Virus genome (UHGV): UHGV-0198360
Strand: one strand, 5' to 3'
Length of the DNA: 37,260 bases
Source of the DNA: a virus
Positions 19,727 through 35,286 of the stretch are shown here, in pieces; position 1 is the first letter of the stretch, and the number at the start of each line of letters is the position of its first letter. A model generated the notes under the pieces. It was not told the origin of the DNA and made no database searches. It saw nothing but the letters and a program-made list of their open reading frames with translations. Made by a program: the position numbers and the translations under genes.

Positions 19727-20316
19727 CAGGCTAACCTCCACGCCCGGCGGCGTTCTGTTCGTGGAGCTGAGTCAGGGTGACGCTCAACCGGTTCGCCGTC
19801 TGCATGGTCCACCAGCGACCAGCAGGGATAGACGACAACGCCACCATAAGCATCGCCCACGGCATAATCGGCAGGCTTACTGCAGTCCCATTGAGACAGC
19901 ACACGGCTGATGCTTTGAGGCGGTATGCTGTAGCACACGCCATGTATCAGGCGTTGCAGCATAATGAAGTCAGACCTCACCTTATCCGCATTAATCAGGC
20001 GTTCAGCTATCTGCATTTGGTATTGCGGTGGCCGCCCAGTGCCCAGATAAAAACTAAGCATGTCGCCAGGGAAACGAGCCAGCCAGCCCGTAATCTTGTC
20101 TCTGAATCCACGTACAGGCAGCGCGTCGTCTTCCAGCACCACTACCCGGCAAGGTTGCTCAGCAGCCCATTCGATAGCGCGCCGGTGATTCCAGTTCGCA
20201 CCGTGATTCCCTTCATCGATAAGCAGGTGTGCGCCAAGTTCGCCAGCCAGCAATGCAGCTGAGGCATAGCGGGAATGGTGACCAATCACAACATACTTCA
20301 CTTGTGTTTCCACCAT
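19726..20316 (-). CDS. Hypothetical protein, possible small glycosyltransferase-like enzyme (196 aa)
   Basis: ORF track; strong SD AAAGGAGA; beta-strand then acidic VVVLEDD motif reminiscent of DxD glycosyltransferases; assignment tentative. Confidence 0.4.
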   Translation of the reverse strand: MVETQVKYVVIGHHSRYASAALLAGELGAHLLIDEGNHGANWNHRRAIEWAAEQPCRVVVLEDDALPVRGFRDKITGWLARFPGDMLSFYLGTGRPPQYQMQIAERLINADKVRSDFIMLQRLIHGVCYSIPPQSISRVLSQWDCSKPADYAVGDAYGGVVVYPCWSLVDHADGEPVERHPDSAPRTERRRAWRLA

Positions 20317-21755
20317 GCGGTCTCCTTTCCGAAGCCATCCGTTTTAAAGATGGTATGCACCAGAGGGCCGGTAACGATTCGATTACCGAATGACTTTGCA
20401 GCCATCCCGAAAGCGCCCATGTCCACCAGCGTGGCGGGAGCTGCTTCCATCTTCCAGAAGCGGTGGCTTTCAATAAGGTAATGCTGACGGATGATCCGGT
20501 GGGCGAACTCCATTACATCTTCACGGTAGCCACCAATCAGGCCAGCATTAAGCAGTTGCTCATCCCGGTGCAGTTCGAAGAACTCGCTATAAGCTTTGCC
20601 GTGGTGATTGTCCTTCATCCATTCGTCAAAGTAGGTTTTGTGCTCGGAGCCAACGTAAATTTTACCCGGCGCCATCTCTGCCCAAGGCTCACGCAGCATT
20701 TCAACGTCTGTCCCGTCAGTACACCAGACAAGATGGTATTCAGGGTGGGCACGAAGATACTGATAGATGTGAAGCCAGCGAGCAAAGTATGGGCTCATGC
20801 CCAACGGCGGGACTTCAAACAGACCGGCGCCAGTTGGCGACTCTTTTAATTCGTCAGCCAGGACAATCGGCAGCGCGCCGGATATTGAATCTGCCCAAGC
20901 CTGAAGAGCCTGCGGGTCGGGTTTCATCTTCCTGCCTCGCTGTGGGTCTGGCTGGCTTGTGAGCAGCGTCGTAATCACTAGATTTGGATTTCTGCTGTAC
21001 GAGGCAAAGCCTGTATAACCGCTGTCGCGTCGAGCGTTGAAGATGCCAACGTTTCTTTTTACCAGTGCCTCTCGGTCAGGCCGTGGTATTGAGCGCACGC
21101 CCTCTTCGTACTCGTCCATTGAGTGAATCAGCTTTTCAGAGCCAACTACATCAGCGAACGCCCACGACGTTAAACCAGCGTTGTGAATCCGAAGCGCCAG
21201 ATCGGGATGCTCGTACATGCCGCGACCGTATACCGGATCGAATCCGCCAACCTTCTTGATGGCGCTGCGGTGGTAGTAAAGCATCACCCCGCGCTGACCA
21301 GTGTAAGCAACATGCTTATCATCACGGTACAGCTCCGCCATGTCGTTCAGCTTATTGCGACCAGCCAGATCCAGAAACTGGTAAGCCAGGTGCGGCTCTG
21401 GTGATTCGATGTAGGGAAGATGCCAGTTATCGGCGATGGGCCAGGCATCATCATCCCATAAAAACAGATGCTCGCACCCGACATCCATCAGGGCTGACAG
21501 GCTGGCGTTCTTCGAGGCAACAATGCCGAGTGATGTTTCATGGCGAAGCAGTTGCACGCCGTCGGGTGCTATCGCTGCAGGTTTTGAACCATCATCGACA
21601 ACCACCAGCAGCGCACCGGCTGGCAGATGCTTCTGGTGCTGCTCAACAGCACGCTTTAAAACGTCCGCCCGGTTGTGGGTGGTAATCGCAATGCCAATCC
21701 GTGACGCTGAAGCACAGGCAGGCAAATACGGGACACCATCAATAGTGACCTGCAT
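20298..21755 (-). CDS. Glycosyltransferase family 2-like protein with extra C-terminal domain (485 aa)
   Basis: ORF track; N-terminal GT-A-like motifs (GIAITTHNRADVL, VVVDDGS, LWDDDAW); SD GGAGA before ATG. Confidence 0.55.
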   Translation of the reverse strand: MQVTIDGVPYLPACASASRIGIAITTHNRADVLKRAVEQHQKHLPAGALLVVVDDGSKPAAIAPDGVQLLRHETSLGIVASKNASLSALMDVGCEHLFLWDDDAWPIADNWHLPYIESPEPHLAYQFLDLAGRNKLNDMAELYRDDKHVAYTGQRGVMLYYHRSAIKKVGGFDPVYGRGMYEHPDLALRIHNAGLTSWAFADVVGSEKLIHSMDEYEEGVRSIPRPDREALVKRNVGIFNARRDSGYTGFASYSRNPNLVITTLLTSQPDPQRGRKMKPDPQALQAWADSISGALPIVLADELKESPTGAGLFEVPPLGMSPYFARWLHIYQYLRAHPEYHLVWCTDGTDVEMLREPWAEMAPGKIYVGSEHKTYFDEWMKDNHHGKAYSEFFELHRDEQLLNAGLIGGYREDVMEFAHRIIRQHYLIESHRFWKMEAAPATLVDMGAFGMAAKSFGNRIVTGPLVHTIFKTDGFGKETAWWKHK

Positions 21756-26875: not shown

Positions 26876-27262
26876 TCAGGCGGCTGCACCCGCCGGTTCA
26901 TATCTGCTGATCGTTATCTCTACCCGACCTTTCGGCACTACGGGTCCCCATTCCACCAGCATGCGCTTAATCTGGCTGTCGTCTTCCCAGACACCCGCAT
27001 GCGTCAGCGCGTCAAACAGGGCTTTGTTGTAATTATCGATATCCCGGCGGCGCGCATCCGGCGGGTACAGAGTGATTTCTACCGCTGCCAGTTCAGTCGA
27101 TGGCTTCGGGAGACGTCGTAATTGCTCAATGATCGCCACGCAGGCAGCGCTCTGGTATTTACGACCATCAGCGCTAATGAGGTGACGACCGGCCAGCGGC
27201 CCCTTATTAGGGGCGCGCCAGTACGTGTTCACGCTCGGAGGGAACGGGAGCACAAGTTTCAT
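26876..27262 (-). CDS. rusA: Holliday junction resolvase RusA (128 aa)
   Basis: ORF trimmed to ATG (SD AGGAGGTGGC, ATGA overlap with methyltransferase stop); MKLVLPFPPSVNTYW and Asp-rich catalytic region typical of RusA. Confidence 0.8.
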   Translation of the reverse strand: MKLVLPFPPSVNTYWRAPNKGPLAGRHLISADGRKYQSAACVAIIEQLRRLPKPSTELAAVEITLYPPDARRRDIDNYNKALFDALTHAGVWEDDSQIKRMLVEWGPVVPKGRVEITISRYEPAGAAA

Positions 27263-29076
27263 GCCACCTCCTGCTGTTGCACTGCACACAGTTCCGGAAG
27301 ATTTGCCTCCACCAGCGCCCTGGCGAATGGTGGTGGTACCGCATTACCGCAGCGGGCTACCTGCTTATCTTTTGCATAGAGATTTCCACGGTAGTCCTGA
27401 TCAATAACGTAACCATCCGGGAAGCCCTGCGCTTTGTAGAGTTCATGCGGCTGCAACATGCGCATTCCGATATCAACGATCTGGTATTTAACCCCATCGA
27501 TCGTTACCAGCCATTCATCGTCACTTTCCCCGCAATACGTCTCGAGAAATGTGCGTACCTCACCCACGTGTTGGCCACCAGCGGTGATTGTTGGCATTGG
27601 CACATCAAGGCGTTGCCCGTCGCGGCATGTTCCACGCAGTTTCACCAGATGAGAGGCAACTACCGCATGATGGTCGACAGTGGTCACTGAATGCGCGGGT
27701 TCATCCATACTGACACCCGGCCCCGTATAGTTACCGCCGTAGTGTTTCGCCAGGAACGCGCCCACCAATTGTGATTTACCGCCACCACCAGCTGTAATTG
27801 TGGCGCTCGGTTCGTCTGCCCGGTGGCCGACGCTGGCCCCAAACTGGCGGGCTATCACTGGCGCAACAAGACAGGCGCGGGATTGCTTCAGAATGGTATG
27901 AGCAGGTTTATCCAGCGGGCGCGGTTTAGCCTGGTATTCACTACCACCATTACCCGCCAGAAATGGTGTTAGTGCAGCCTCAACAATCCCGAGAGCATGC
28001 CCATTCCCACCCGGACGTTTTGATGTGCCAGCGGTTACCGTCGGGACAGGTTCGGTAACGGGCTGCCCGGTTGCGCCAGTGCGGAATTTTGTCAGATGTG
28101 GAACAGCTAACGCGTAACCGTGGGTTTTAGTAATAGTTTGCAAAGGCTCGTCCAGCTTCTGACCGCGGAAACAGTCGTAACTCGTTTTGGTGCTGGTGTG
28201 ATTGCACTTCACGATAAACGGCGACGCACTTTCGATAACAAAGCGCTGTATGCCGCGCGCGATCCGCTTCAGAGTGTTCTCCGCCAGCGGTTTTTTGCGG
28301 TCGAAGATGGACAGGGCCGGAACATTCCAGTCGATACATTCCGCAGCGGTACGCCATGGCATCAGCCTGCCACTTTGCACCTCCAGCGACTTAGGATCCC
28401 CATGGCTAACAGCAGGCCACTGGATTGGGCAACCATCGCAACGCATAACCATGAAGAAGCGTTTGCGGATCGTCGGCGCGCCGTAATCACACGCGCGTAG
28501 TTCGCGATAATCAACATCATATCCGAGCCCATCCACCAGCTTTTGCGCCTGCTCGCTACCTCTTTCGATAGACAGAAACTCACAAACCTCAGCCAGTGCC
28601 GGGTGATCAGCAGGAATGCCAGTGGACAGCATGCCGACAAATGCATTGAATGTTTCGCCAGTGCGGGCAGGATCCGGACGCATTTCATCGGCCAGCAGCG
28701 GTCCCCACGTTTTGAACTCTTCCACGTTCTCCAGCATCATCACGCGCGGTCGCTTTGCCAGTGCCCAACGCAGAACAATCCAGGCCAGACCGCGTATCTC
28801 TTTTTTCACTGGCTTTGCGCCTTTTGCCTTCGAGAAGTGTCGGCAGTCCGGGCTAAACCATGCCAGGCCGACAGGATTACCGCCGGTGGCAGCTACCGGA
28901 TCCACGTCAAAAACGGATTCACAATAATGCAGTGTGTCCGGGTGGTTCGTCTTGTGCATCGCAATGGCGTTTTCGTCGTGGTTGATCGCAATATCCACGC
29001 TGCGCCCGATCGCCAGTTCAATACCCGTTGATGCGCCACCGCCACCAGCAAAGTTATCAACAATAATCTCACGCAT
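27259..29076 (-). CDS. DNA cytosine-5 methyltransferase (605 aa)
   Basis: ORF track; motif I DNFAGGGG, PC motif region SPDCRHFS, ENV motif MLENVEEF. Confidence 0.8.
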   Translation of the reverse strand: MREIIVDNFAGGGGASTGIELAIGRSVDIAINHDENAIAMHKTNHPDTLHYCESVFDVDPVAATGGNPVGLAWFSPDCRHFSKAKGAKPVKKEIRGLAWIVLRWALAKRPRVMMLENVEEFKTWGPLLADEMRPDPARTGETFNAFVGMLSTGIPADHPALAEVCEFLSIERGSEQAQKLVDGLGYDVDYRELRACDYGAPTIRKRFFMVMRCDGCPIQWPAVSHGDPKSLEVQSGRLMPWRTAAECIDWNVPALSIFDRKKPLAENTLKRIARGIQRFVIESASPFIVKCNHTSTKTSYDCFRGQKLDEPLQTITKTHGYALAVPHLTKFRTGATGQPVTEPVPTVTAGTSKRPGGNGHALGIVEAALTPFLAGNGGSEYQAKPRPLDKPAHTILKQSRACLVAPVIARQFGASVGHRADEPSATITAGGGGKSQLVGAFLAKHYGGNYTGPGVSMDEPAHSVTTVDHHAVVASHLVKLRGTCRDGQRLDVPMPTITAGGQHVGEVRTFLETYCGESDDEWLVTIDGVKYQIVDIGMRMLQPHELYKAQGFPDGYVIDQDYRGNLYAKDKQVARCGNAVPPPFARALVEANLPELCAVQQQEVA

Positions 29077-30391
29077 GGGTTACCCCCTGCATGCTGCCGA
29101 CAAGACCACGCGCAATTGTGATGATTTCGCTGGTGGCCGTTCGTTCCAGCCAGAGTTGATTGATGTTGGCTTTCAGCTTGTTCTGCTGTGATTCATCCAG
29201 CATGTCAGCGCCGTCTACCTGGTCGAATACAATTCCAACCTCCAGCGGCCAGATACGGGACTCGGGAAGCGGATCCGATACTGGTTTAGCTTTCTCACGG
29301 ATGTGCATGCGGATCTGGCGAATATTGGACCAACTGGAAACATCCAGGCTTCCCATAGCTGCAATGAAATCAGTACTGTTCATGCCATATTCACCAGATG
29401 CTTCGAGGGCAACAGTACGAATACGTTCCGACATATCCAGGCGCGCAGCAGCGTCATCGAATTCAATCGACAACAGCCACTCATCCACACCGAACAAAAT
29501 ACTCTCACGAATAAGCAGCTTCGCTTTGTCGATCGTTAATGGTGATACCTGAGTGAATTCCGGTGCTTCGACAGAATCCGCCGCCCAGGTATGCCCAAAC
29601 TTCGATTCACTGAATGTGTATTCTTCTTTATCGCCGAACGCAGCTCTAACGCATGCCCACGCCTCGACACCGCTGATATCAAAAATATCTTTCTGGGTAA
29701 GTGGCAACTCTGCTTCTGGCTTGTCAGCTACAGATGGTATGGCAGTTGCAGGTTGAGACTTGCTGGCAGCAAATTGCGCCAAAGTCATAAACGCCCGCCC
29801 TTTTGCCTCCAGTTCAGTACGGTTGATATAGCTGAACCGCTCACCACGCCATGAGTTATCGAATACAGCTATGGCACCGGCAAAAAACGCGCTGGTGGGC
29901 TTCTGTTTTTCGTCAGCAGGTACAAACCACACTGGCAGATCGAACCCAATGCGCCCGCGAATGAATACAATGTGATCGGCATCTTCCGGCCACCACGTTT
30001 CACTTGGCGCGGCTTTTATCAGGAATACATAGCGACCGCCCTTCTCGCGCTGGGCTGCTGCGTACTTCATGATGTGCGTCATACCAGTGATCGCCTGTTT
30101 CTCGTGGTACTGCGAACGGCTATACGGTGGGTTGCCATAACCTGCACCACCCAGTTCTGCCAGACGTTCAGACCAGTCCTGGGTCAGCGCGTTATCTTCG
30201 GCGGTGTACCATGCCGGGCATTTCGCGTTGTCGTCGTCAGCAAACAAGTCCAGAACTAATGGGCCAAATAACGCGTTGATCCCCCAGAAAAGCAGATCAG
30301 GTGTCCTCCACTGATCTCCAACTTCTTTCAATTCGTGAGCTGGTTTACTGCGCAGTTCTGCCAGCGCCTGGCAATATTTATTTGGCATCAT
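29069..30391 (-). CDS. Phage Dam-like N6-adenine methyltransferase domain fused to a ~250-aa domain of unknown function (440 aa)
   Basis: ORF track; NPPY motif (GYGNPPYSRS) in N-terminal third; C-terminal part unrecognised; ATGA overlap with upstream replication gene. Confidence 0.6.
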   Translation of the reverse strand: MMPNKYCQALAELRSKPAHELKEVGDQWRTPDLLFWGINALFGPLVLDLFADDDNAKCPAWYTAEDNALTQDWSERLAELGGAGYGNPPYSRSQYHEKQAITGMTHIMKYAAAQREKGGRYVFLIKAAPSETWWPEDADHIVFIRGRIGFDLPVWFVPADEKQKPTSAFFAGAIAVFDNSWRGERFSYINRTELEAKGRAFMTLAQFAASKSQPATAIPSVADKPEAELPLTQKDIFDISGVEAWACVRAAFGDKEEYTFSESKFGHTWAADSVEAPEFTQVSPLTIDKAKLLIRESILFGVDEWLLSIEFDDAAARLDMSERIRTVALEASGEYGMNSTDFIAAMGSLDVSSWSNIRQIRMHIREKAKPVSDPLPESRIWPLEVGIVFDQVDGADMLDESQQNKLKANINQLWLERTATSEIITIARGLVGSMQGVTHA

Positions 30392-32175: not shown

Positions 32176-32373
32176 TCACGCAGCCGAGTGGCTACGCTTT
32201 TCATAAAGTGATTGGTCAACTTTCAATACACCTTTGGTCAGCGCTTGGATCTCAAAAGCTCGTCCCTTTGGAATAATTTCATCCCATCCCGACACGGACG
32301 CATGAGAGATATTCAAAGCCTTAGCGGTTTTCCCTACGCCACCGAAGTAAGAAATAACGTCATTCTTTTTCAT
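32176..32373 (-). CDS. Cro-like repressor (YdaS-type HTH protein, 65 aa)
   Basis: ORF track; HTH GGVGKTAKALNISHASVSGW; divergent from cI across an operator region. Confidence 0.7.
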   Translation of the reverse strand: MKKNDVISYFGGVGKTAKALNISHASVSGWDEIIPKGRAFEIQALTKGVLKVDQSLYEKRSHSAA

Positions 32374-32472
32374 TTTTCCCTCTGGAGTTAAGTAATGCAG
32401 TGCACTGATAGTAGGATATCTTACATTGATTGGTCAAGCACTCCTACATCAGATAATGGTAGGATTACCTAC
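32374..32472. promoter_or_regulatory. Divergent promoter/operator region (OR-like; PR for cro, PRM for cI)
   Basis: Minus strand TTGACC - 18 nt - TACTAT upstream of cro; plus strand GATAAT about 15 nt before the cI start; operator-like ATAGTAGGATATCTTACATT (32408-32427) and inverted TCCTAC...GTAGGA (32442-32464). Confidence 0.55.
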
Positions 32473-33129
32473 ATGAAAATGAATGATCGAATCCGAAGCA
32501 GACGAAAAGAGCTAAAGATGACGCAATCCGTCCTGGCAAAGCTCGTCGGGGTTAATCGCGTCACTATCACCGGTTGGGAATCCGGTGACTACAAACCGGG
32601 TGGTGAAAACCTCCAGGCGCTTGCGGCTGCATTAGAAAAGACACCGCAGTGGTTACTGGATGGAAAGGATGATGGAAGTCAGCAGCCACCAACTATGGAC
32701 CCGGAGCAAAGATTCGGAATTAGGTCAGTTCCCGTTCTCACATGGGTACAGGCCGGGGAATGGACGGCCAATTGCGTAGCGATCACAGAGCGGGACATTC
32801 ATGACTGGGTCTATACTTCGGCTGCCGTTTCTGAAAGTGCATTTGCACTCATTGTTCGCGGCGACTCGATGACCAACCCTACAGGTGCACCAAGTATTCC
32901 CGAAGGTTCTATTGTCGTTGTAGAACCTGATTTTGGTGATGCCAGTCAAGCTAATGGTAAAATTGTTATTGCACAGCTTATGGGCAGTGATGAAGCCACT
33001 ATTAAAAAGTTCGTCATCGATGGGCCGCTGAAATACCTAGTACCTCTTAACCCCAATTACAGGACTTTAGAAGTCAATGGCAACTGCCGATTGGTAGGAT
33101 TAGTAAGACAAGTAATAATGGATTTATAA
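32473..33129 (+). CDS. CI-like repressor with LexA-type S24 autopeptidase domain (218 aa)
   Basis: Track ORF trimmed to ATG at 32473 (SD AGGA); N-terminal HTH (MTQSVLAKLVGVNRVTITGWE), C-terminal S24 motifs (GDSM, KIVIAQL). Confidence 0.8.
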   Translation: MKMNDRIRSRRKELKMTQSVLAKLVGVNRVTITGWESGDYKPGGENLQALAAALEKTPQWLLDGKDDGSQQPPTMDPEQRFGIRSVPVLTWVQAGEWTANCVAITERDIHDWVYTSAAVSESAFALIVRGDSMTNPTGAPSIPEGSIVVVEPDFGDASQANGKIVIAQLMGSDEATIKKFVIDGPLKYLVPLNPNYRTLEVNGNCRLVGLVRQVIMDL

Positions 33130-33130
33130 G

Positions 33131-33156
33131 AAAACCGGGAATACCCGGTTTTTTTT
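33131..33156 (+). terminator. Intrinsic terminator after cI
   Basis: Hairpin ACCGGGAATACCCGGT followed by T8. Confidence 0.65.
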
Positions 33157-33162
33157 CGCCCC

Positions 33163-33219
33163 TCAATGTAAGTTATCCAACATTTCCACTTGACCCCAAA
33201 TAGTAAGTTATCCTACATT
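33163..33219 (+). promoter_or_regulatory. PL/OL-like promoter-operator region
   Basis: TTGACC (33190-33195) - 18 nt - TACATT (33214-33219); operator-like repeats AATGTAAGTTATCCAACATT (33165-33184) and ATAGTAAGTTATCCTACATT (33200-33219) resembling the OR site. Confidence 0.55.
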
Positions 33220-33324
33220 AATAACATTAACAGCGAACGGGCAGGACGCCCACGAAGTAGCCGCCGGTGGCGTATGAATAACCGGATGATTCGCTGAGCA
33301 TGACTAAAAACTGAGGGTTACACG

Positions 33325-33537
33325 ATGAATGCAGCACAACGGCGCAAGGCTTATCGCAAGCACCCCAAGGCTGGGGAAGTGGTGGTTTTACGTGGGGTTC
33401 CTCGCACAGTTCTGGGACCGTGCATGTTCAATATCTTTACCGGCGAAGAACGCAGCAAGCCATCAGTGAACCGCGTCAAGGTACAAATGACTGGCGGTTC
33501 TACAGCTGCTCCACTGATACGCAATTTGACGTTTTAA
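33325..33537 (+). CDS. N-like antiterminator candidate with arginine-rich N-terminal motif (70 aa)
   Basis: ORF track; SD GAGGG; N-terminus MNAAQRRKAYRK resembles lambda N ARM (MDAQTRRRERRAEK); first gene downstream of PL-like promoter. Confidence 0.5.
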   Translation: MNAAQRRKAYRKHPKAGEVVVLRGVPRTVLGPCMFNIFTGEERSKPSVNRVKVQMTGGSTAAPLIRNLTF

Positions 33538-33766
33538 CAGCAGACAGGTGTCTTCGGGAGGGGTAACAGAGGCGCGGCCTGATTAACCGCAACTCATAGT
33601 CAAATTCCTATAGCTGGTGGCGATACCCAAGCCAGGAATACCAAAACCAGCAGGAGTGTTAGGGAACAGGGTCAATCCCCCCCCTTAGCACCCCGCCCGA
33701 AGATACCTACCACCGCGCCTGATGTGGTTAAAAGCAGGCCAAAGCAATAACAAGTAACTCCCTGTT

Positions 33767-33815
33767 CTGGCGGCCCGGTGTTTTCCCGTTTGTCCGGTCA
33801 CCGCCAGCCTTTTTC
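33767..33815 (+). terminator. Candidate tL1-like terminator downstream of N-like gene
   Basis: Inverted repeat CTGGCGG...CCGCCAG with internal CCGG/CCGG stem, followed by CCTTTTTC. Confidence 0.4.
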
Positions 33816-34154
33816 AGGGCACAACGACGAGAGCATTGACGAGCAAGGCATAAGTGCTGGTTCGATTCCAGACAGTCCCATTCAGTTGGGAGGGTTGGGC
33901 AGGGAAAAGGTTCGTTCGATTCGAACACCGGCAGTGCTCTCTTCGTTGTGGTGAATGCGCAGGCTGATGCGCTAAACCGTGAGGGAGTGTCCCGAAAGGG
34001 TGCGTCACTGGTAATCAACCCATGCCGGAATATCGCAGTACCGGCCACCACAACCAAATCACGCTTAGGACCGTGATAACCGTAGTTCCAGTATTGCTGT
34101 GAGTAGTCTTGGCGGTACCAGGGTCTTCAACCTTATGCAAGGGGGACGAAGATA

Positions 34155-34382
34155 ATGTTCTACCTCGGTACCGCCCTTTTTACGCAACAGAAAAGGGCAT
34201 CACCGGGCGACGGGCTCATAACCCAATCCACCCGGGCAAAAAGAAAGCGGTATCTGCAAGCCGCCGACCAATGCAGGTGCCCTTCTCTGTTGTGTATGGA
34301 GAAAGTTCGGCGGTGGCAGCCGCCACAACTTCGTGTATGGACTAAAACCTTGTGCAGAGGAAAGTTAAATGAAATTACCTAA
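34155..34382 (+). CDS. Possible small basic protein (75 aa) upstream of rdgC
   Basis: ORF track; SD GGGGGA 8 nt before ATG; stop overlaps rdgC start; composition somewhat atypical. Confidence 0.3.
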   Translation: MFYLGTALFTQQKRASPGDGLITQSTRAKRKRYLQAADQCRCPSLLCMEKVRRWQPPQLRVWTKTLCRGKLNEIT

Positions 34383-35286
34383 GTTCCGTAACGCAATCGT
34401 GTACCGCGCCACACTACCTGGCATTGAAGCAATTGAAGGCCATCTTCTCGAACTCCCCTATTCTGAGATAGGTGAGACTGAATTGTCGCGAACATCTTTT
34501 GTGCCTAATCCAATCACCGGCGAACTGGTTACCCCTATTACTGGCGGTTACGCCATAGTTGTACGTCGCGATCAGAAAATTATTCCGCAGCATGTGCTTA
34601 TGAAAGAAGCCACGGCACGTATTCAAAATATTGAGAACATGTCCGGGCATAAATTAAAACGTGCCGAGCGTTTAGCCATTATTGATAGTGTTCTGGCGGA
34701 GTTATGCAAAAAAGCATTTGTGAAGTCGACGCTGATCCTGGCGCTGTATAGCACTGATGAAAAATTACTGGTGATTAACACGACCAACAAGCAAATCGCC
34801 AGCATGGTGTGCGCAATGCTGATTAAGGTTGTCGGTTCAGTGAAAACAGAAACAATCAACATTAGTGATATCAAGAATGGACTGACTACACGCCTGAAGA
34901 ACTACATCAATGGTGCAGCCAATGCATTCGAAGGATTCACTGTCGGGAATTATATTCAGCTATCACGCTACGCAGATCAAAAGGAAGTTATTCGCTACTC
35001 AGCTGAGCATGAGTCAATTCAAAGCGAACTGGCCGATAGCCTTAGTAGTAGTTTCACTGCTGATAAAATGGAGTTATCCGGTTGCGGTGTGACCTTCATT
35101 CTGACCGAAAATTTCCATTTTTCGCGCATCAATACCCAATCTCAGACATTTAATGATGAAGATGACAAAGCATTCCAGTGGCGTCATCAGGCAGGCGCTG
35201 ACCTTTTCCAATTCAGCAAGGTAGTTAATTTGATGTGTGACCTTCTTTCATACAAAGAAGAACAGCCACAAAAACCAGCAGCATAA
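34369..35286 (+). CDS. rdgC: Recombination-associated protein RdgC-like (305 aa)
   Basis: ORF track; SD GAGGAAA; size (~303 aa) and N-terminal pattern (MKLPKFRNAIVYRA...) matching RdgC-type proteins. Confidence 0.6.
   Translation: MKLPKFRNAIVYRATLPGIEAIEGHLLELPYSEIGETELSRTSFVPNPITGELVTPITGGYAIVVRRDQKIIPQHVLMKEATARIQNIENMSGHKLKRAERLAIIDSVLAELCKKAFVKSTLILALYSTDEKLLVINTTNKQIASMVCAMLIKVVGSVKTETINISDIKNGLTTRLKNYINGAANAFEGFTVGNYIQLSRYADQKEVIRYSAEHESIQSELADSLSSSFTADKMELSGCGVTFILTENFHFSRINTQSQTFNDEDDKAFQWRHQAGADLFQFSKVVNLMCDLLSYKEEQPQKPAA

What the first reader, a model, noticed from the sequence alone, without database searches (positions are those of the whole stretch)
33538..34368. About 830 bp downstream of the N-like gene with no convincing protein-coding ORF
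The stretch between the N-like gene and rdgC contains a tL1-like terminator, GC-rich inverted repeats and two T-loop-like GGTTCGATTC motifs (33859-33868 and 33909-33922), but the ORFs the track places here look like random reading frames. This suggests structured RNA (an sRNA, an RNA-based anti-defense element or a processed antitermination leader) rather than coding sequence. I could not fold a tRNA cloverleaf around the T-loop motifs.
Basis: seen in the sequence. Interest (0 to 1): 0.5.

Follow-up and report, generated by a model that had tools for sequence, protein, structure and literature searches.

The report
Unannotated tRNA-like RNA array in prophage
The 830 bases between a small phage gene and rdgC do not encode protein: they are a chain of folded RNA modules, one of them a widespread 130-base tRNA-like RNA with two T arms that I found in no database or paper searched.

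Summary
Window 33538-34368 is the untranslated middle of the early-left (pL) transcript of a lambdoid prophage, probably from Citrobacter. It is a tandem array of self-contained RNA modules.

- Module Z (33546-33708) is closed by a 19-bp stem.
- Terminator A is at 33767-33814.
- Block B (33820-33949) holds both "T-loop" motifs.
- A tRNA-shaped "slot" element (33947-34056) sits where relatives carry a real tRNA-Arg(UCU) or an STnc100-like sRNA.
- A DicF-like terminator hairpin is at 34111-34181.
- Block E (34181-34296) is closed by a 19-bp stem.

Block B is a four-helix RNA: an 18-bp closing stem, two canonical T arms and a variable hairpin. Covariation is strong: 15 pairs change on both sides, and 0 of 500 shuffles reach the observed score. 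G·U pairs place the fold on the + strand. It occurs in phages and prophages of at least 12 Enterobacterales species and in 78 of 5,426 complete E. coli genomes, never annotated, with no Rfam match.

Its layout resembles the bacterial Y RNA YrlA, but it fails the YrlA membership tests.

Function is inferred. It is probably a tRNA mimic released by processing next to the tRNA-like element, flanked by terminator-defined sRNAs.

The parts
33190..33219 (+). pL-like sigma-70 promoter (TTGACC-18-TACATT) flanked by operator repeats TAAGTTATCCNACATT. It drives the whole region.
   Evidence: Promoter scan and sequence. It lies directly downstream of the cI/LexA-type repressor gene 32395-33129, which has Peptidase_S24 and HTH_3 domains.
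33229..33299 (+). Conserved 71-nt pL leader RNA, a three-way junction. It lies outside the finding's coordinates but on the same transcript.
   Evidence: Model R2 scores 96.1 bits here. Helix P3 covaries and 93% of cells are paired, with 0/500 shuffles reaching that. It is present in 53 phage records, whatever sequence follows it.
33325..33537 (+). 70-aa ORF (the 'N-like' gene). It is a real conserved small protein of unknown function on an indel cassette.
   Evidence: Homologues at 77-96% identity, mostly 70 aa long, occur in Citrobacter, Serratia and Salmonella. There is no Pfam or PHROG hit. The ORF is precisely absent in L007, L043, L045, L049, L050, L066 and L073, where the leader joins 33540 directly.
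33546..33708 (+). Module Z: a 163-nt element closed by a 19-bp stem (AGGTGTCTTCGGGAGGGGT / ACCCCGCCCGAAGATACCT).
   Evidence: Inverted repeat I3. The fold has a z-score of -2.3. It is conserved at roughly 93-98% identity in 10 other distinct sequences from the loci, with one G-C to A-U compensatory change and wobble-to-Watson-Crick changes in the closing stem.
33767..33814 (+). Intrinsic terminator A (tL1-like): CTGGCGGCCCGG...CCGGTCACCGCCAG + CC + T5. It lies inside conserved block A (33709-33819).
   Evidence: Sequence. It is conserved in the window and in the E. coli FAM21845 and Nissle 1917 prophages.
33820..33949 (+). Block B: a 130-nt tRNA-like RNA.
- P1 closing stem: 33821-33838 / 33932-33949.
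- P2, T arm 1: 33855-33860 / 33868-33873, loop UUCGAUU 33861-33867.
- P3, variable hairpin: 33874-33880 / 33887-33893.
- P4, T arm 2: 33909-33914 / 33922-33928, loop UUCGAUU 33915-33921.
   Evidence: Covariation: 89.3% of cells are paired, 15 pairs change on both sides, and 0/500 shuffles match; slid controls give 37-52%. RNAalifold finds the same helices independently. Model R1 scores 146.6 bits on the + strand and 27.6 on the - strand. The fold z-score is -4.5.
33947..34056 (+). Slot element, a cloverleaf-shaped tRNA-like RNA. It has an acceptor-like stem UGUGGUG 33947-33953 / CACCACA 34046-34052. An abutting 5-bp hairpin (GCCGG 34024-34028 / CCGGC 34041-34045) follows, then ACCA at 34053-34056. 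Its first three bases are shared with P1 of block B.
   Evidence: The minimum-energy fold is a cloverleaf, z-score -2.6. The same site holds tRNA-Arg(UCU) in SPN9TCW-type phages. In L068 it holds a tRNA-like element scoring 44.5 bits on Rfam tRNA. In other loci it holds STnc100-like elements.
34058..34077 (+). Small conserved hairpin AUCACG-CUUAGGAC-CGUGAU, immediately 3' of the slot.
   Evidence: Sequence. It is conserved after the tRNA in SPN9TCW and in phiNP.
34092..34181 (+). Block D: a single-stranded stretch UAUUGCUGUGAGUAGUCUU followed by terminator hairpin GGCGGUACC...GGUACCGCC + C + U5. The frame is DicF-like.
   Evidence: Rfam DicF scores 15.1 bits against a gathering score of 48. 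The terminator frame is conserved with a variable loop in relatives. The K-12 DicF control scores 76.7 bits.
34181..34296 (+). Block E: a 116-nt structured RNA. P1 is a 19-bp stem (34181-34199 / 34278-34296) enclosing CCGGG...CCCGG, GGG...CCC and a variable hairpin. An invariant GGAGAAA follows at 34298-34304.
   Evidence: 94% of cells are paired and the covariation score is 0.181 against 0.105 for shuffles (0/500); slid controls give 35-52%. The fold z-score is -3.5.
34308..34324 (+). Hairpin CGGCGG-UGGCA-GCCGCC just upstream of the rdgC ribosome-binding region. In relatives the stem sequence differs while a GCAG-containing loop is kept.
   Evidence: Variant sequences (GGCGG/CCGCC, CGACC/GGTCG, GGCGGCC/GGCCGCC, AACGCC/GGCGTT). 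This was judged by inspection only.
34369..35286 (+). rdgC, the first protein-coding gene after the RNA array.
   Evidence: Pfam RdgC, E = 2e-32.

Best explanation
The stretch is the untranslated, highly structured part of the early-left transcript that starts at the pL-like promoter (33190-33219). It is a tandem array of independently folding RNA modules that are gained, lost and swapped between phages.

SHOWN
- The modules are real RNA structures on the + strand. This holds for block B, block E and the leader by covariation and G·U asymmetry. Module Z has weaker support.
- Block B is a new four-helix RNA. It has an 18-bp closing stem, two hairpins whose stems and 7-nt loops match the tRNA T-arm consensus (G53, U54, U55, C56, R57, A58, C61), and a variable hairpin directly after the first T arm.
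- In every context examined by eye, and in all copies that carry the block B 3' end, block B is followed at once by GUUGUG. This starts an element framed like the top half of a tRNA, with an acceptor-like stem. In most variants inspected a 5-bp hairpin abuts that stem, followed by ACC or ACCA. In a few phages the element is a genuine tRNA-Arg(UCU).

INFERRED MECHANISM
1. RNA polymerase that is not modified for antitermination stops at terminator A or D. Modified polymerase reads through to rdgC.
2. The tRNA-like slot element attracts tRNA-processing enzymes. RNase P would cut at its 5' end, which is the 3' end of block B.
3. The long closing stems (18-19 bp) could be RNase III targets, as shown for the DicF precursor in the equivalent operon of prophage Qin.
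4. Processing would release block B as a stable RNA. It would also release a downstream RNA of about 125 nt (34057-34181) that ends at terminator D, with the build of an Hfq-type sRNA.
5. Block B would act as a tRNA mimic that engages host factors recognising T arms or the tRNA elbow. These factors are conserved across Enterobacterales, which would explain why its loops and junctions are nearly invariant in unrelated phage backgrounds.
For: - Modularity: a clean presence/absence of blocks separates the window, FAM21845 and Nissle prophages. The same blocks occur in phiNP, 1720a-02 and SPN9TCW.
- Block B structure: 89.3% of cells are paired against 80.9% for shuffles (0/500). Fifteen pairs change on both sides. 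Slid controls give 37-52%. RNAalifold predicts the same helices, with 12 of 34 pairs compensatory.
- Strand: U·G at columns 18/119 in 18 of 31 sequences, and R1 scores 146.6 bits on + against 27.6 on -.
Twelve Enterobacterales species genomes carry it, as do 78 of 5,426 complete E. coli genomes, never annotated.
- Slot: a true tRNA-Arg(UCU) starts within the last bases of block B in SPN9TCW-type phages. The L068 slot passes the Rfam tRNA threshold. Eight of 98 contexts have a canonical T arm. Other variants score 33-37.5 bits on STnc100.
- Block E covaries, as does the leader.
- No coding signal.
Against: - There are no expression or end-mapping data, so every processing step and the trans-acting role are inference.
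- Block B has no anticodon arm or D arm, so which tRNA-binding factor would recognise it is unknown.
- Close relatives such as the Nissle 1917 prophage lack block B, the slot and block D. They keep the flanking blocks and rdgC, so these modules are dispensable for early-left gene expression.
- The window's own slot variant has too few and too similar homologues to test its internal helices, and one substitution breaks a predicted pair.
- Block D scores far below the DicF threshold, and its best duplex with ftsZ is no better than shuffled sequences.
- The homologues were gathered with patterns that fix the T loops and the linker. The invariance of those parts is therefore partly imposed by the search.
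Confidence: 0.6

Rival explanations
1. The stretch is a graveyard of decayed tRNA genes. On this view the T-arm motifs and the cloverleaf-like slot are remnants of a phage tRNA cluster drifting without function.
For: A bona fide tRNA-Arg(UCU) occupies the slot in SPN9TCW-type phages. Intermediate forms with canonical D and T arms but no anticodon loop exist in L068 and L107. ARAGORN finds nothing in the window. The window-type slot shows an uncompensated change.
Against: The block B helices keep pairing through 15 double changes. Its junctions are nearly invariant across phages of Escherichia, Salmonella, Edwardsiella, Erwinia, Brenneria and Buttiauxella. Drift would erase both features. The frame of the slot is kept while its interior is replaced. 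The frame is the acceptor-like stem and, in most variants, an abutting 5-bp hairpin and ACC(A).
Confidence: 0.12
2. The modules are cis-acting transcription or RNA-stability signals for the early-left operon. They could be nut/put-like antitermination sites, Rho-blocking structure or 5'-UTR stabilisers, with no trans-acting product.
For: They lie between pL and the first long gene. The stretch contains two intrinsic terminators. In relatives that lack the 70-aa ORF, about 1 kb of untranslated RNA precedes the first gene. Dense structure there would hinder Rho loading, by general knowledge. Block E always directly follows terminator D and precedes whichever gene comes next.
Against: Block B with its tRNA also occurs in Uetakevirus genomes, in a stand-alone unit between structural genes and outside any pL operon. 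Block B, the slot and block D are missing from the Nissle prophage, which keeps terminator A, block E and rdgC. The leader model finds no second copy downstream of pR and nothing in HK022.
Confidence: 0.2
3. Block B is a bacterial Y RNA of the YrlA type. It would bind the host Ro60 orthologue (Rsr) through its long stem and tether it to an effector through its tRNA-like module.
For: The order of elements in the 5' half is the same as in YrlA: terminal stem, variable region, T arm, then a hairpin of variable sequence directly after the T arm (PMC4201824; YrlA sequence in bioRxiv 10.1101/312249). YrlA-like RNAs have been reported in phages.
Against: - There is no D arm. A G-rich linker and a second T arm take its place.
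- The 5' motif GNCGAAN0-1G is absent; block B has GACGAG.
- None of the nine ORFs of 330 aa or more has a TROVE domain.
- Most E. coli strains lack rsr (my own knowledge), yet 78 E. coli genomes carry block B.
- No Rfam family matches block B, even at E up to 10.
Confidence: 0.06
4. The region encodes small proteins that standard annotation misses, or pseudogenes of such proteins.
For: Some phage records annotate 'hypothetical proteins' over homologous DNA. Two ORFs give partial PHROG hits. A 28-codon ORF starting at 34297 overlaps the rdgC start.
Against: The PHROG hits cover only 23-41 residues of conserved DNA. No Pfam hit exists. Length variants of block B differ by non-multiples of three. 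The would-be start of the ORF at 34297 is ATG, GTG or ACG in relatives, and the reading frame is not kept. The substitution pattern preserves base pairs rather than codons.
Confidence: 0.03

Closest known systems
YrlA, the bacterial Y RNA of Salmonella Typhimurium and relatives (Chen et al. 2014, PMC4201824)
   Same: Both are modular RNAs of about 110-130 nt. A long stem is formed by the two ends. Then come a variable region, a canonical T arm, and a hairpin of non-conserved sequence directly 3' of the T arm. This is a circularly permuted tRNA layout. Both are reported in phages.
   Different: Block B has a second T arm and a G-rich linker where YrlA has a canonical D arm. It lacks the proposed Ro-binding motif GNCGAA. 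It is not next to an rsr gene, and it occurs in E. coli.
STnc100 (Rfam RF02076) and PasD prophage sRNAs (Zhu, Shabalina & Storz, bioRxiv 10.64898/2026.05.13.724894)
   Same: The element in the slot shares the RF02076 frame: a closing stem UGGUG/CACCA, then AAU, a first hairpin, and a 5-bp hairpin abutting the 3' strand of the closing stem. Slot variants in relatives, and the dicF-dicB spacer of K-12 Qin, score 33-37.5 bits.
   Different: The window's own slot gives no RF02076 hit even at E up to 10. All hits in relatives are below the gathering score of 47. The copies of STnc100 and PasD whose positions are given in the papers I read lie in the late region: near stx2 for STnc100, and near Q and the holin-lysozyme genes for PasD. 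A link to a tRNA site is not mentioned in the papers I read.
DicF (Rfam RF00039) of prophage Qin
   Same: It holds the same position, in an early-left pL-type operon downstream of the repressor gene. The frame is the same: UUGGCGGUA...CCGCCC followed by a U-run terminator. [quoted passage not shown]
   Different: The window scores 15.1 bits against a gathering score of 48. Its terminator loop is 47 nt, much longer than DicF's. Complementarity to ftsZ is no better than for shuffled sequence.
Phage tRNA genes with co-transcribed stable RNAs. Examples are the T4 tRNA cluster with its species 1 and 2 RNAs, and 3'ETS-leuZ-type sRNAs cut from tRNA precursors (from my own knowledge)
   Same: Structured non-tRNA RNAs sit directly beside a tRNA or tRNA-like element. 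tRNA-processing nucleases could set them free.
   Different: No sequence relationship was tested. In most copies here the tRNA itself has been replaced by a tRNA-like element.
HK022 put RNAs (PMC9378689)
   Same: This comparison concerns the leader at 33229-33299, not the finding proper. The leader is about 70 nt, begins just downstream of pL, and is conserved regardless of what follows. Terminators lie downstream that must be read through.
   Different: The leader is a three-way junction and not two stem-loops in a V. No second copy was found after pR. The leader model finds nothing in HK022.

Membership tests
tRNA (Rfam RF00005 / ARAGORN) | A cloverleaf with acceptor, D, anticodon and T arms that tRNA scanners recognise | tested here: not met
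   ARAGORN finds 0 genes in the window. Rfam gives no tRNA hit at gathering score or at E up to 10 over 33100-34500. As controls, the SPN9TCW tRNA scores 71 bits and the L068 slot 44.5 bits.
tRNA (Rfam RF00005 / ARAGORN) | A T arm with a 5-bp stem closed by G53-C61 and a loop U54 U55 C56 R57 A58 N N | tested here: met
   Two copies are present: CUGG-UUCGAUU-CCAG (33857-33871) and GUUCG-UUCGAUU-CGAAC (33910-33926). Both stems covary.
YrlA-type bacterial Y RNA | The order terminal stem, V region, T arm, 'AS' hairpin | tested here: met
   The structure was compared with the YrlA description and sequence.
YrlA-type bacterial Y RNA | A canonical D arm after the AS hairpin | tested here: not met
   The linker UGGGCAGGGAAAAG and a second T-arm hairpin occupy that position.
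YrlA-type bacterial Y RNA | The motif GNCGAAN0-1G near the 5' end, the proposed Ro60 contact | tested here: not met
   The 5' strand reads CACAACGACGAGAGCAUUGACGAGCAAGG. It contains GACGAG but not GNCGAA.
YrlA-type bacterial Y RNA | Encoded next to an rsr (Ro60/TROVE) gene | tested here: not met
   None of the nine ORFs of 330 aa or more in the window has a TROVE domain. The neighbours are a repressor gene, a 70-aa ORF and rdgC.
YrlA-type bacterial Y RNA | Binds Rsr/Ro60 | not testable with these tools
   This needs immunoprecipitation.
DicF (RF00039) | Reaches the Rfam gathering score of 48 bits | tested here: not met
   The window scores 15.1 bits at 34098-34176. The K-12 control scores 76.7 bits.
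DicF (RF00039) | Base-pairs with the ftsZ ribosome-binding region | tested here: inconclusive
   RNAduplex gives -38.5 kcal/mol, and 72% of shuffles do as well or better. The same crude test does not separate genuine DicF either, where 17% of shuffles match it.
STnc100 (RF02076) | Reaches the Rfam gathering score of 47 bits | tested here: not met
   The window gives no hit at E up to 10. Slot variants in relatives score 33-37.5 bits and the K-12 dicF-dicB spacer 34.4 bits.
STnc100 (RF02076) | The frame: closing stem UGGUG/CACCA, then AAU, with a 5-bp hairpin abutting the 3' strand | tested here: met
   The window has UGUGGUG-AAU...GCCGG-12 nt-CCGGC-CACCACA. This was compared with the RF02076 consensus line, by inspection.
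HK022 put antiterminator RNA (applies to the leader 33229-33299) | About 70 nt just downstream of pL, with a second copy downstream of pR; two stem-loops; sequence similarity to putL/putR | tested here: not met
   The position and size fit. However, the structure is a three-way junction. No second copy is found in the window, and nothing is found in the HK022 loci with filters off.
Lambda N / nut antitermination (applies to the 70-aa ORF) | An N-family protein with an arginine-rich motif, plus boxA/boxB sites on both early transcripts | tested here: inconclusive
   The N-terminus MNAAQRRKAYRK is arginine- and lysine-rich, but no Pfam or PHROG family matches. No boxA/boxB pair was identified. 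Relatives with the same leader and terminators lack the ORF.

The most novel reading that the evidence does not exclude
Block B is a previously undescribed class of phage tRNA mimic. It presents two tRNA 'elbows' on a long stem and acts in trans on a host factor that reads T arms. Candidates are RNase P, TruB/TrmA, the CCA-adding enzyme, or a tRNA-directed defence nuclease. Its obligatory 3' neighbour records an evolutionary path from a phage tRNA gene to STnc100/PasD-type regulatory sRNAs.
Probability: 0.25. Interest if true: 0.8.

Novelty: new variant of a known kind. Interest (0 to 1): 0.6.

Why it matters
- Temperate phages of enterobacteria, including Stx2-converting phages and prophages of pathogenic E. 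coli, carry a conserved structured RNA that no annotation or Rfam family captures. It sits in the first transcript made after induction.
- A covariation-supported RNA with two canonical T arms is a ready candidate for a tRNA mimic with a host target. It could be tested directly with the covariance model built here.
- The same locus links three things that have so far been treated separately: DicF-type terminator sRNAs, STnc100/PasD-type prophage sRNAs, and phage tRNA genes. It suggests that some prophage sRNAs arose from tRNA genes.
- In practical terms, ORFs called across these blocks in phage records are probably spurious.

Tried and rejected
- Rfam at gathering score on the whole window gave nothing. 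At E up to 10 on 33100-34500 it gave only chance-level hits: SNORD95, DicF at 15 bits, and beta_tmRNA at 8 bits on the first T loop.
- ARAGORN on the window and on the first five loci found only the SPN9TCW tRNA.
- Hammerhead ribozyme: variants read CUGACGAG, and a GAAA lies downstream. However, the strand between P1 and the next helix is 17 nt, the T arm that would have to be broken covaries, and no Rfam ribozyme model hits. I rejected this reading.
- HK022 put: the leader model finds nothing in HK022 and no second copy in the window.
- A hairpin resembling 34309-34324 at 26879-26894 (- strand) lies inside a coding sequence and was dismissed as chance.
- Targets of the single-stranded part of block D: there is no complementary site elsewhere in the window. 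The ftsZ duplex test was uninformative.
- Literature search for three core sequence strings of blocks B and E found no paper. Supplements of the YrlA paper are not held.
- My automatic search for the acceptor/T-stem minihelix downstream of block B was too permissive; it picked internal false positives, including in the window. I therefore rely on inspection of the variant list rather than on its counts.
- BLAST of 33300-33720 against E. coli genomes and against phages found nothing. The homologues of this part came from IMG/VR loci.
Full report
**Setting**

The window is a lambdoid siphovirus prophage. It encodes an HK97-type capsid, portal, large terminase, tape measure and tail-tip J protein. 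At 32395-33129 (+) lies a cI/LexA-type repressor gene (Peptidase_S24 plus HTH_3). Downstream is a promoter-like site TTGACC-18-TACATT at 33190-33219, flanked by two copies of TAAGTTATCCNACATT. This is the expected layout for pL and its operators. Everything from here to rdgC (34369-35286; Pfam RdgC, E = 2e-32) is on the + strand.

The closest protein match of the 70-aa ORF is from the Citrobacter freundii complex. The ORF and its 3' flank have no DNA match in 5,426 E. coli genomes or 50,697 phage records. The host is therefore probably Citrobacter or a near relative.

**Check of the observation**

- GGTTCGATTC is at 33859-33868 and GGTTCGTTCGATTC at 33909-33922.
- The 9-mer GTTCGATTC occurs twice in 37 kb, both here, against 0.33 expected.
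- A terminator-like hairpin with a T5 tail ends at 33814, and a second ends at 34181.
- Long inverted repeats bracket 33546-33708, 33820-33950 and 34181-34296.

The stretch shows no sign of coding.
- None of the five longest ORFs in the stretch hits Pfam.
- Two of them give PHROG hits, but over only 23-41 residues. I read these as translations of conserved DNA inside ORFs that other phage records annotate as hypothetical proteins.
- Homologous copies of the central block have lengths of 126, 127, 129, 130, 132 and 133 nt. These differences would shift any reading frame.
- ARAGORN and Rfam at gathering score find nothing.

**The region is modular**

I aligned the window with two E. coli prophages that share its rdgC. 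The alignment shows sharply bounded blocks.
- A 66-nt leader just after pL is about 97% identical in all three. The promoter and the first ORF differ completely: a 70-aa ORF here, a 121-aa ClpX-zinc-finger ORF there.
- Block A (33709-19, with terminator A) and block E (34186-34305) are in all three.
- Block B (33820-33949), the following element and the second terminator are in the window and in FAM21845. They are cleanly absent from the Nissle 1917 prophage. There the sequence jumps from CAGGGCACAAC straight into block E.

Citrobacter phage phiNP and Escherichia phage 1720a-02 have the same plan. In both, a repressor gene is followed by 0.8-1.0 kb with no annotated gene, then the early-left genes.

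In nine IMG/VR loci the 70-aa ORF is missing, and the leader joins window position 33540 directly. In those phages about 1 kb of untranslated RNA precedes the first long gene.

**Block B, the home of the two T-loop motifs**

Pattern scans of IMG/VR returned 71 contigs with the exact core. These gave 60 distinct block B sequences. A MAFFT alignment of 31 diverse ones (A3) supports four helices.
- P1 is an 18-bp stem formed by the two ends.
- P2 and P4 are hairpins, each with the loop UUCRAUU and a closing G-C pair. This is the tRNA T-arm consensus.
- P3 is a hairpin of variable sequence and length directly 3' of P2.

The counts on my structure are as follows.

| Measure | Observed | Control |
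|---|---|---|
| Cells paired | 89.3% | 80.9% shuffled (0/500) |
| Pairs with changes on both sides | 15 | 9.9 shuffled (0/500) |
| Covariation score | 0.258 | 0.108 shuffled (0/500) |
| Cells paired with 3' partners slid by 1-3 columns | n/a | 37-52% |

RNAalifold, run without my structure, returns the same four helices. Twelve of its 34 pairs are compensatory.

G·U pairs fix the strand. Columns 18/119 are U·G in 18 sequences, C-G in 8 and U-A in 5. On the opposite strand the U·G pairs would be C·A mismatches. A covariance model built from A3 scores 146.6 bits on the + strand of the window and 27.6 on the - strand.

The junctions are almost invariant: GACGAGCAAGG, UGGGCAGnGAAAAG and CACCGG. 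My search patterns fixed the T loops and part of the linker, so that part of the invariance is partly imposed.

**Spread of block B**

One scan of species-representative genomes found 12 true copies (128-153 bits for the 11 complete copies; one is cut off at a contig end). They are in Brenneria, Citrobacter, Rouxiella, three Buttiauxella species, Ewingella, Erwinia, Izhakiella, Edwardsiella and Symbiopectobacterium. The non-enterobacterial pattern matches were chance.

BLAST finds block B in 78 of 5,426 complete E. coli genomes, one copy each, with no annotated feature under any of the 30 records listed. It also finds it in phages of Escherichia (including Stx2-converting phages), Klebsiella, Salmonella, Edwardsiella and Citrobacter.

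No Rfam family matches block B, even at E up to 10. A full-text search for three core strings found no paper.

**What follows block B**

Block B always ends ...CGUUGU and is followed by G. The bases UGUG start a second element, which I call the slot.
- In Salmonella phages of the SPN9TCW/SPN1S type (Uetakevirus), the slot is a genuine tRNA-Arg(UCU). Its first bases overlap the last bases of P1. There the unit sits between structural genes on the opposite strand. It consists of an upstream block, block B, the tRNA, a small hairpin and a DicF-like terminator, and it appears to have its own promoter. Block B is therefore not tied to pL operons.
- In L068 the slot has a canonical D arm and T arm but a tetraloop in place of the anticodon loop. 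It scores 44.5 bits on Rfam tRNA against a gathering score of 29.
- Of 98 distinct downstream contexts, 3 have the abutting tRNA-Arg and 8 have a canonical T arm.
- The other variants, 72 to about 210 nt long, keep only a frame. That frame is an acceptor-like stem UGUGnnn/nnnCACA. In most variants I inspected, a 5-bp hairpin also abuts its 3' strand and is followed by ACC or ACCA.
- One common variant (GGUGAAUGCGGCUCAGCG...) scores 33-37.5 bits on Rfam STnc100 (gathering score 47). The spacer between dicF and dicB in K-12 prophage Qin scores 34.4 bits. The RF02076 consensus shows the same frame.

STnc100 and its relative PasD are prophage sRNAs of unknown function. Their copies whose positions are given in the papers I read lie in the late region.

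The window's own slot (33947-34056) folds into a cloverleaf shape. It has a 7-bp acceptor-like stem, an abutting GCCGG/CCGGC hairpin and ACCA. It gives no tRNA or STnc100 hit. It has only four near-identical homologues, one with an uncompensated change. I treat its frame as supported and its interior as unresolved.

**The other modules**

*Block D (34092-34181).* A single-stranded stretch is followed by a terminator hairpin. The frame, UUGGCGGUAnCAG...CCGCCCUUUUU, recalls DicF. The Rfam score is 15.1 against a threshold of 48, and genuine DicF scores 76.7. A crude duplex test against ftsZ was uninformative. Block D is DicF-like in place and build, but it is not a member of the family.

*Block E (34181-34296).* It has a 19-bp closing stem that begins in the U-tail of terminator D, plus two inner helices and a variable hairpin. 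On 19 distinct sequences 94% of cells pair. The covariation score is 0.181 against 0.105 (0/500 shuffles), and slid controls give 35-52%. An invariant GGAGAAA follows. It is not a conserved start, because the preceding codon is ATG, GTG or ACG and the frames differ.

*Module Z (33546-33708).* It is closed by a 19-bp stem. It shows one compensatory change and several wobble changes among ten near-identical homologues. The support is weak but consistent.

*The leader (33229-33299).* It lies outside the finding. It is a three-way junction whose P3 covaries. It occurs in 53 phage records, including ST64B, SfV, SfII, SfIV, ZF40, YeP2 and mEp460.

**How it probably works**

What is shown: the modules are conserved, strand-specific RNA structures, and they are shuffled as units.

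What is inferred is the following sequence.
1. Terminators A and D would stop unmodified polymerase. Some antitermination must carry polymerase to rdgC. The leader is a candidate RNA signal, but it fails the tests for the HK022 put family. The 70-aa ORF cannot be the general factor, because relatives with the same leader and terminators lack it.
2. The slot keeps the part of a tRNA that RNase P and other tRNA enzymes read. Cleavage at its 5' end would create the 3' end of block B.
3. The 18-19-bp closing stems are of the size RNase III cuts.
4. [quoted passage not shown]

I therefore expect block B to be released as a stable RNA of about 130 nt, and 34057-34181 as a terminator-ended sRNA.

The loops and junctions of block B are conserved across unrelated phage types and host genera. 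This points to a conserved host partner that reads T arms or the tRNA elbow. Which partner that is, and to what end, is unknown.

**Comparison with known families**

Block B works most like YrlA, the tRNA-mimicking bacterial Y RNA. Both follow the order terminal stem, variable region, T arm, then a non-conserved hairpin. Block B is not a member, for four reasons.
- The D arm is replaced by a linker and a second T arm.
- The GNCGAA motif is absent.
- There is no rsr gene nearby.
- It occurs in E. coli.

The slot is related in frame to STnc100 but does not reach that family's threshold. Block D is related in frame to DicF but likewise falls short.

**Verdict**

The stretch is a chain of structured RNA modules. 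One of them is a widespread, unannotated tRNA-like RNA family with strong comparative support. Its function is not established.

Noticed in passing
window 33229-33299 (+): A 71-nt leader directly after pL is conserved at 80-98% identity in more than 60 fetched loci and in 53 phage records (ST64B, SfV, SfII, SfIV, ZF40, YeP2, Pantoea AH07, mEp460, an Aeromonas phage). Neither the promoter before it nor the sequence after it matters. It folds as a three-way junction, and helix P3 covaries (CCGG/CCGG, CCCGA/UCGGG, CCCCA/UGGGG). It could be an RNA antitermination signal, but it does not match HK022 put.
   Followed up: partly
window 33298-33539: The 70-aa 'N-like' ORF is an insertion cassette. In L007, L043, L045, L049, L050, L066 and L073 the leader joins position 33540 directly. 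The protein is conserved (77-96% identity, mostly 70 aa) in Citrobacter, Serratia and Salmonella but matches no Pfam or PHROG family. In E. coli relatives a 121-aa ClpX-type zinc-finger ORF takes its place.
   Followed up: partly
L077 2433-2642 (E. coli K-12 prophage Qin, between dicF and dicB): The spacer between dicF and dicB matches Rfam STnc100 over the full model, at 34.4 bits (gathering score 47, E = 7e-4). It has the same acceptor-like frame as the slot (UGUGAUG...CCUGG-AGGCA-CCAGG...CAUCACA). In K-12 the order is therefore DicF then a slot-like element, the reverse of the window.
   Followed up: partly
L068 7975-8099; L107 slot: These are tRNA-like elements with canonical D and T arms. 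In L068 the anticodon loop is replaced by a UGAA tetraloop and there is a long insert. Rfam tRNA scores the L068 element 44.5 bits, but ARAGORN does not call it. In L107 a real tRNA-Arg(UCU) follows about 100 nt further on.
   Followed up: partly
window 33820-33825, 34047-34054, 34185-34189 and 33944-33949, 34289-34294: Module boundaries reuse the same words. CACAAC or GCAAC lies at 5' ends and at the slot's 3' end. GUUGUG lies at 3' ends. The deletion in the Nissle prophage runs from one CACAAC to the next. These words may serve as recombination points for module shuffling, or as a shared processing site.
   Followed up: no
window 33947-33949 versus 33821-33823 and 34050-34052: The three bases UGU at the end of block B can pair either with ACA at the start of block B (in P1) or with ACA at the end of the slot (in the acceptor-like stem). 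The two helices compete for them. This could act as a switch or as a stacked junction.
   Followed up: no
window 34166-34205: The 3' arm and U-tail of terminator D (CGGUACCGCCCUUUU) are complementary to the start of block E (AAAAGGGCAUCACCG). This gives an alternative pairing to P1 of block E (inverted repeat I8).
   Followed up: no
window 32325-32344 (-): A hairpin CGGUGGCGUAGGGAAAACCG lies within the first codons of the cro-like ORF. It resembles P3 and the loop of the pL leader (10.5 bits, E about 0.9). It may be chance, or a shared protein-binding hairpin on both early transcripts.
   Followed up: no
window 32395-32472: The repressor ORF as listed starts 26-28 codons upstream of the likely start (MKMNDRIRS...). 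The first ~78 bases probably belong to the cro-cI operator region and not to the gene.
   Followed up: no
L003 44-245 and L080 4100-4301 (relatives, - strand): C4 antisense RNA (80-82 bits) and isrK (59-64 bits) lie side by side near the antirepressor genes of the 1720a-02-type phages. No such hit was found in the window itself.
   Followed up: no
window 27259-30391 (-): Two DNA methyltransferase genes lie in tandem in the rightward early operon: a Dam-type N6-adenine enzyme (29069-30391) and a C5-cytosine enzyme (27259-29076). A 485-aa ORF at 20298-21755 has no Pfam match.
   Followed up: no
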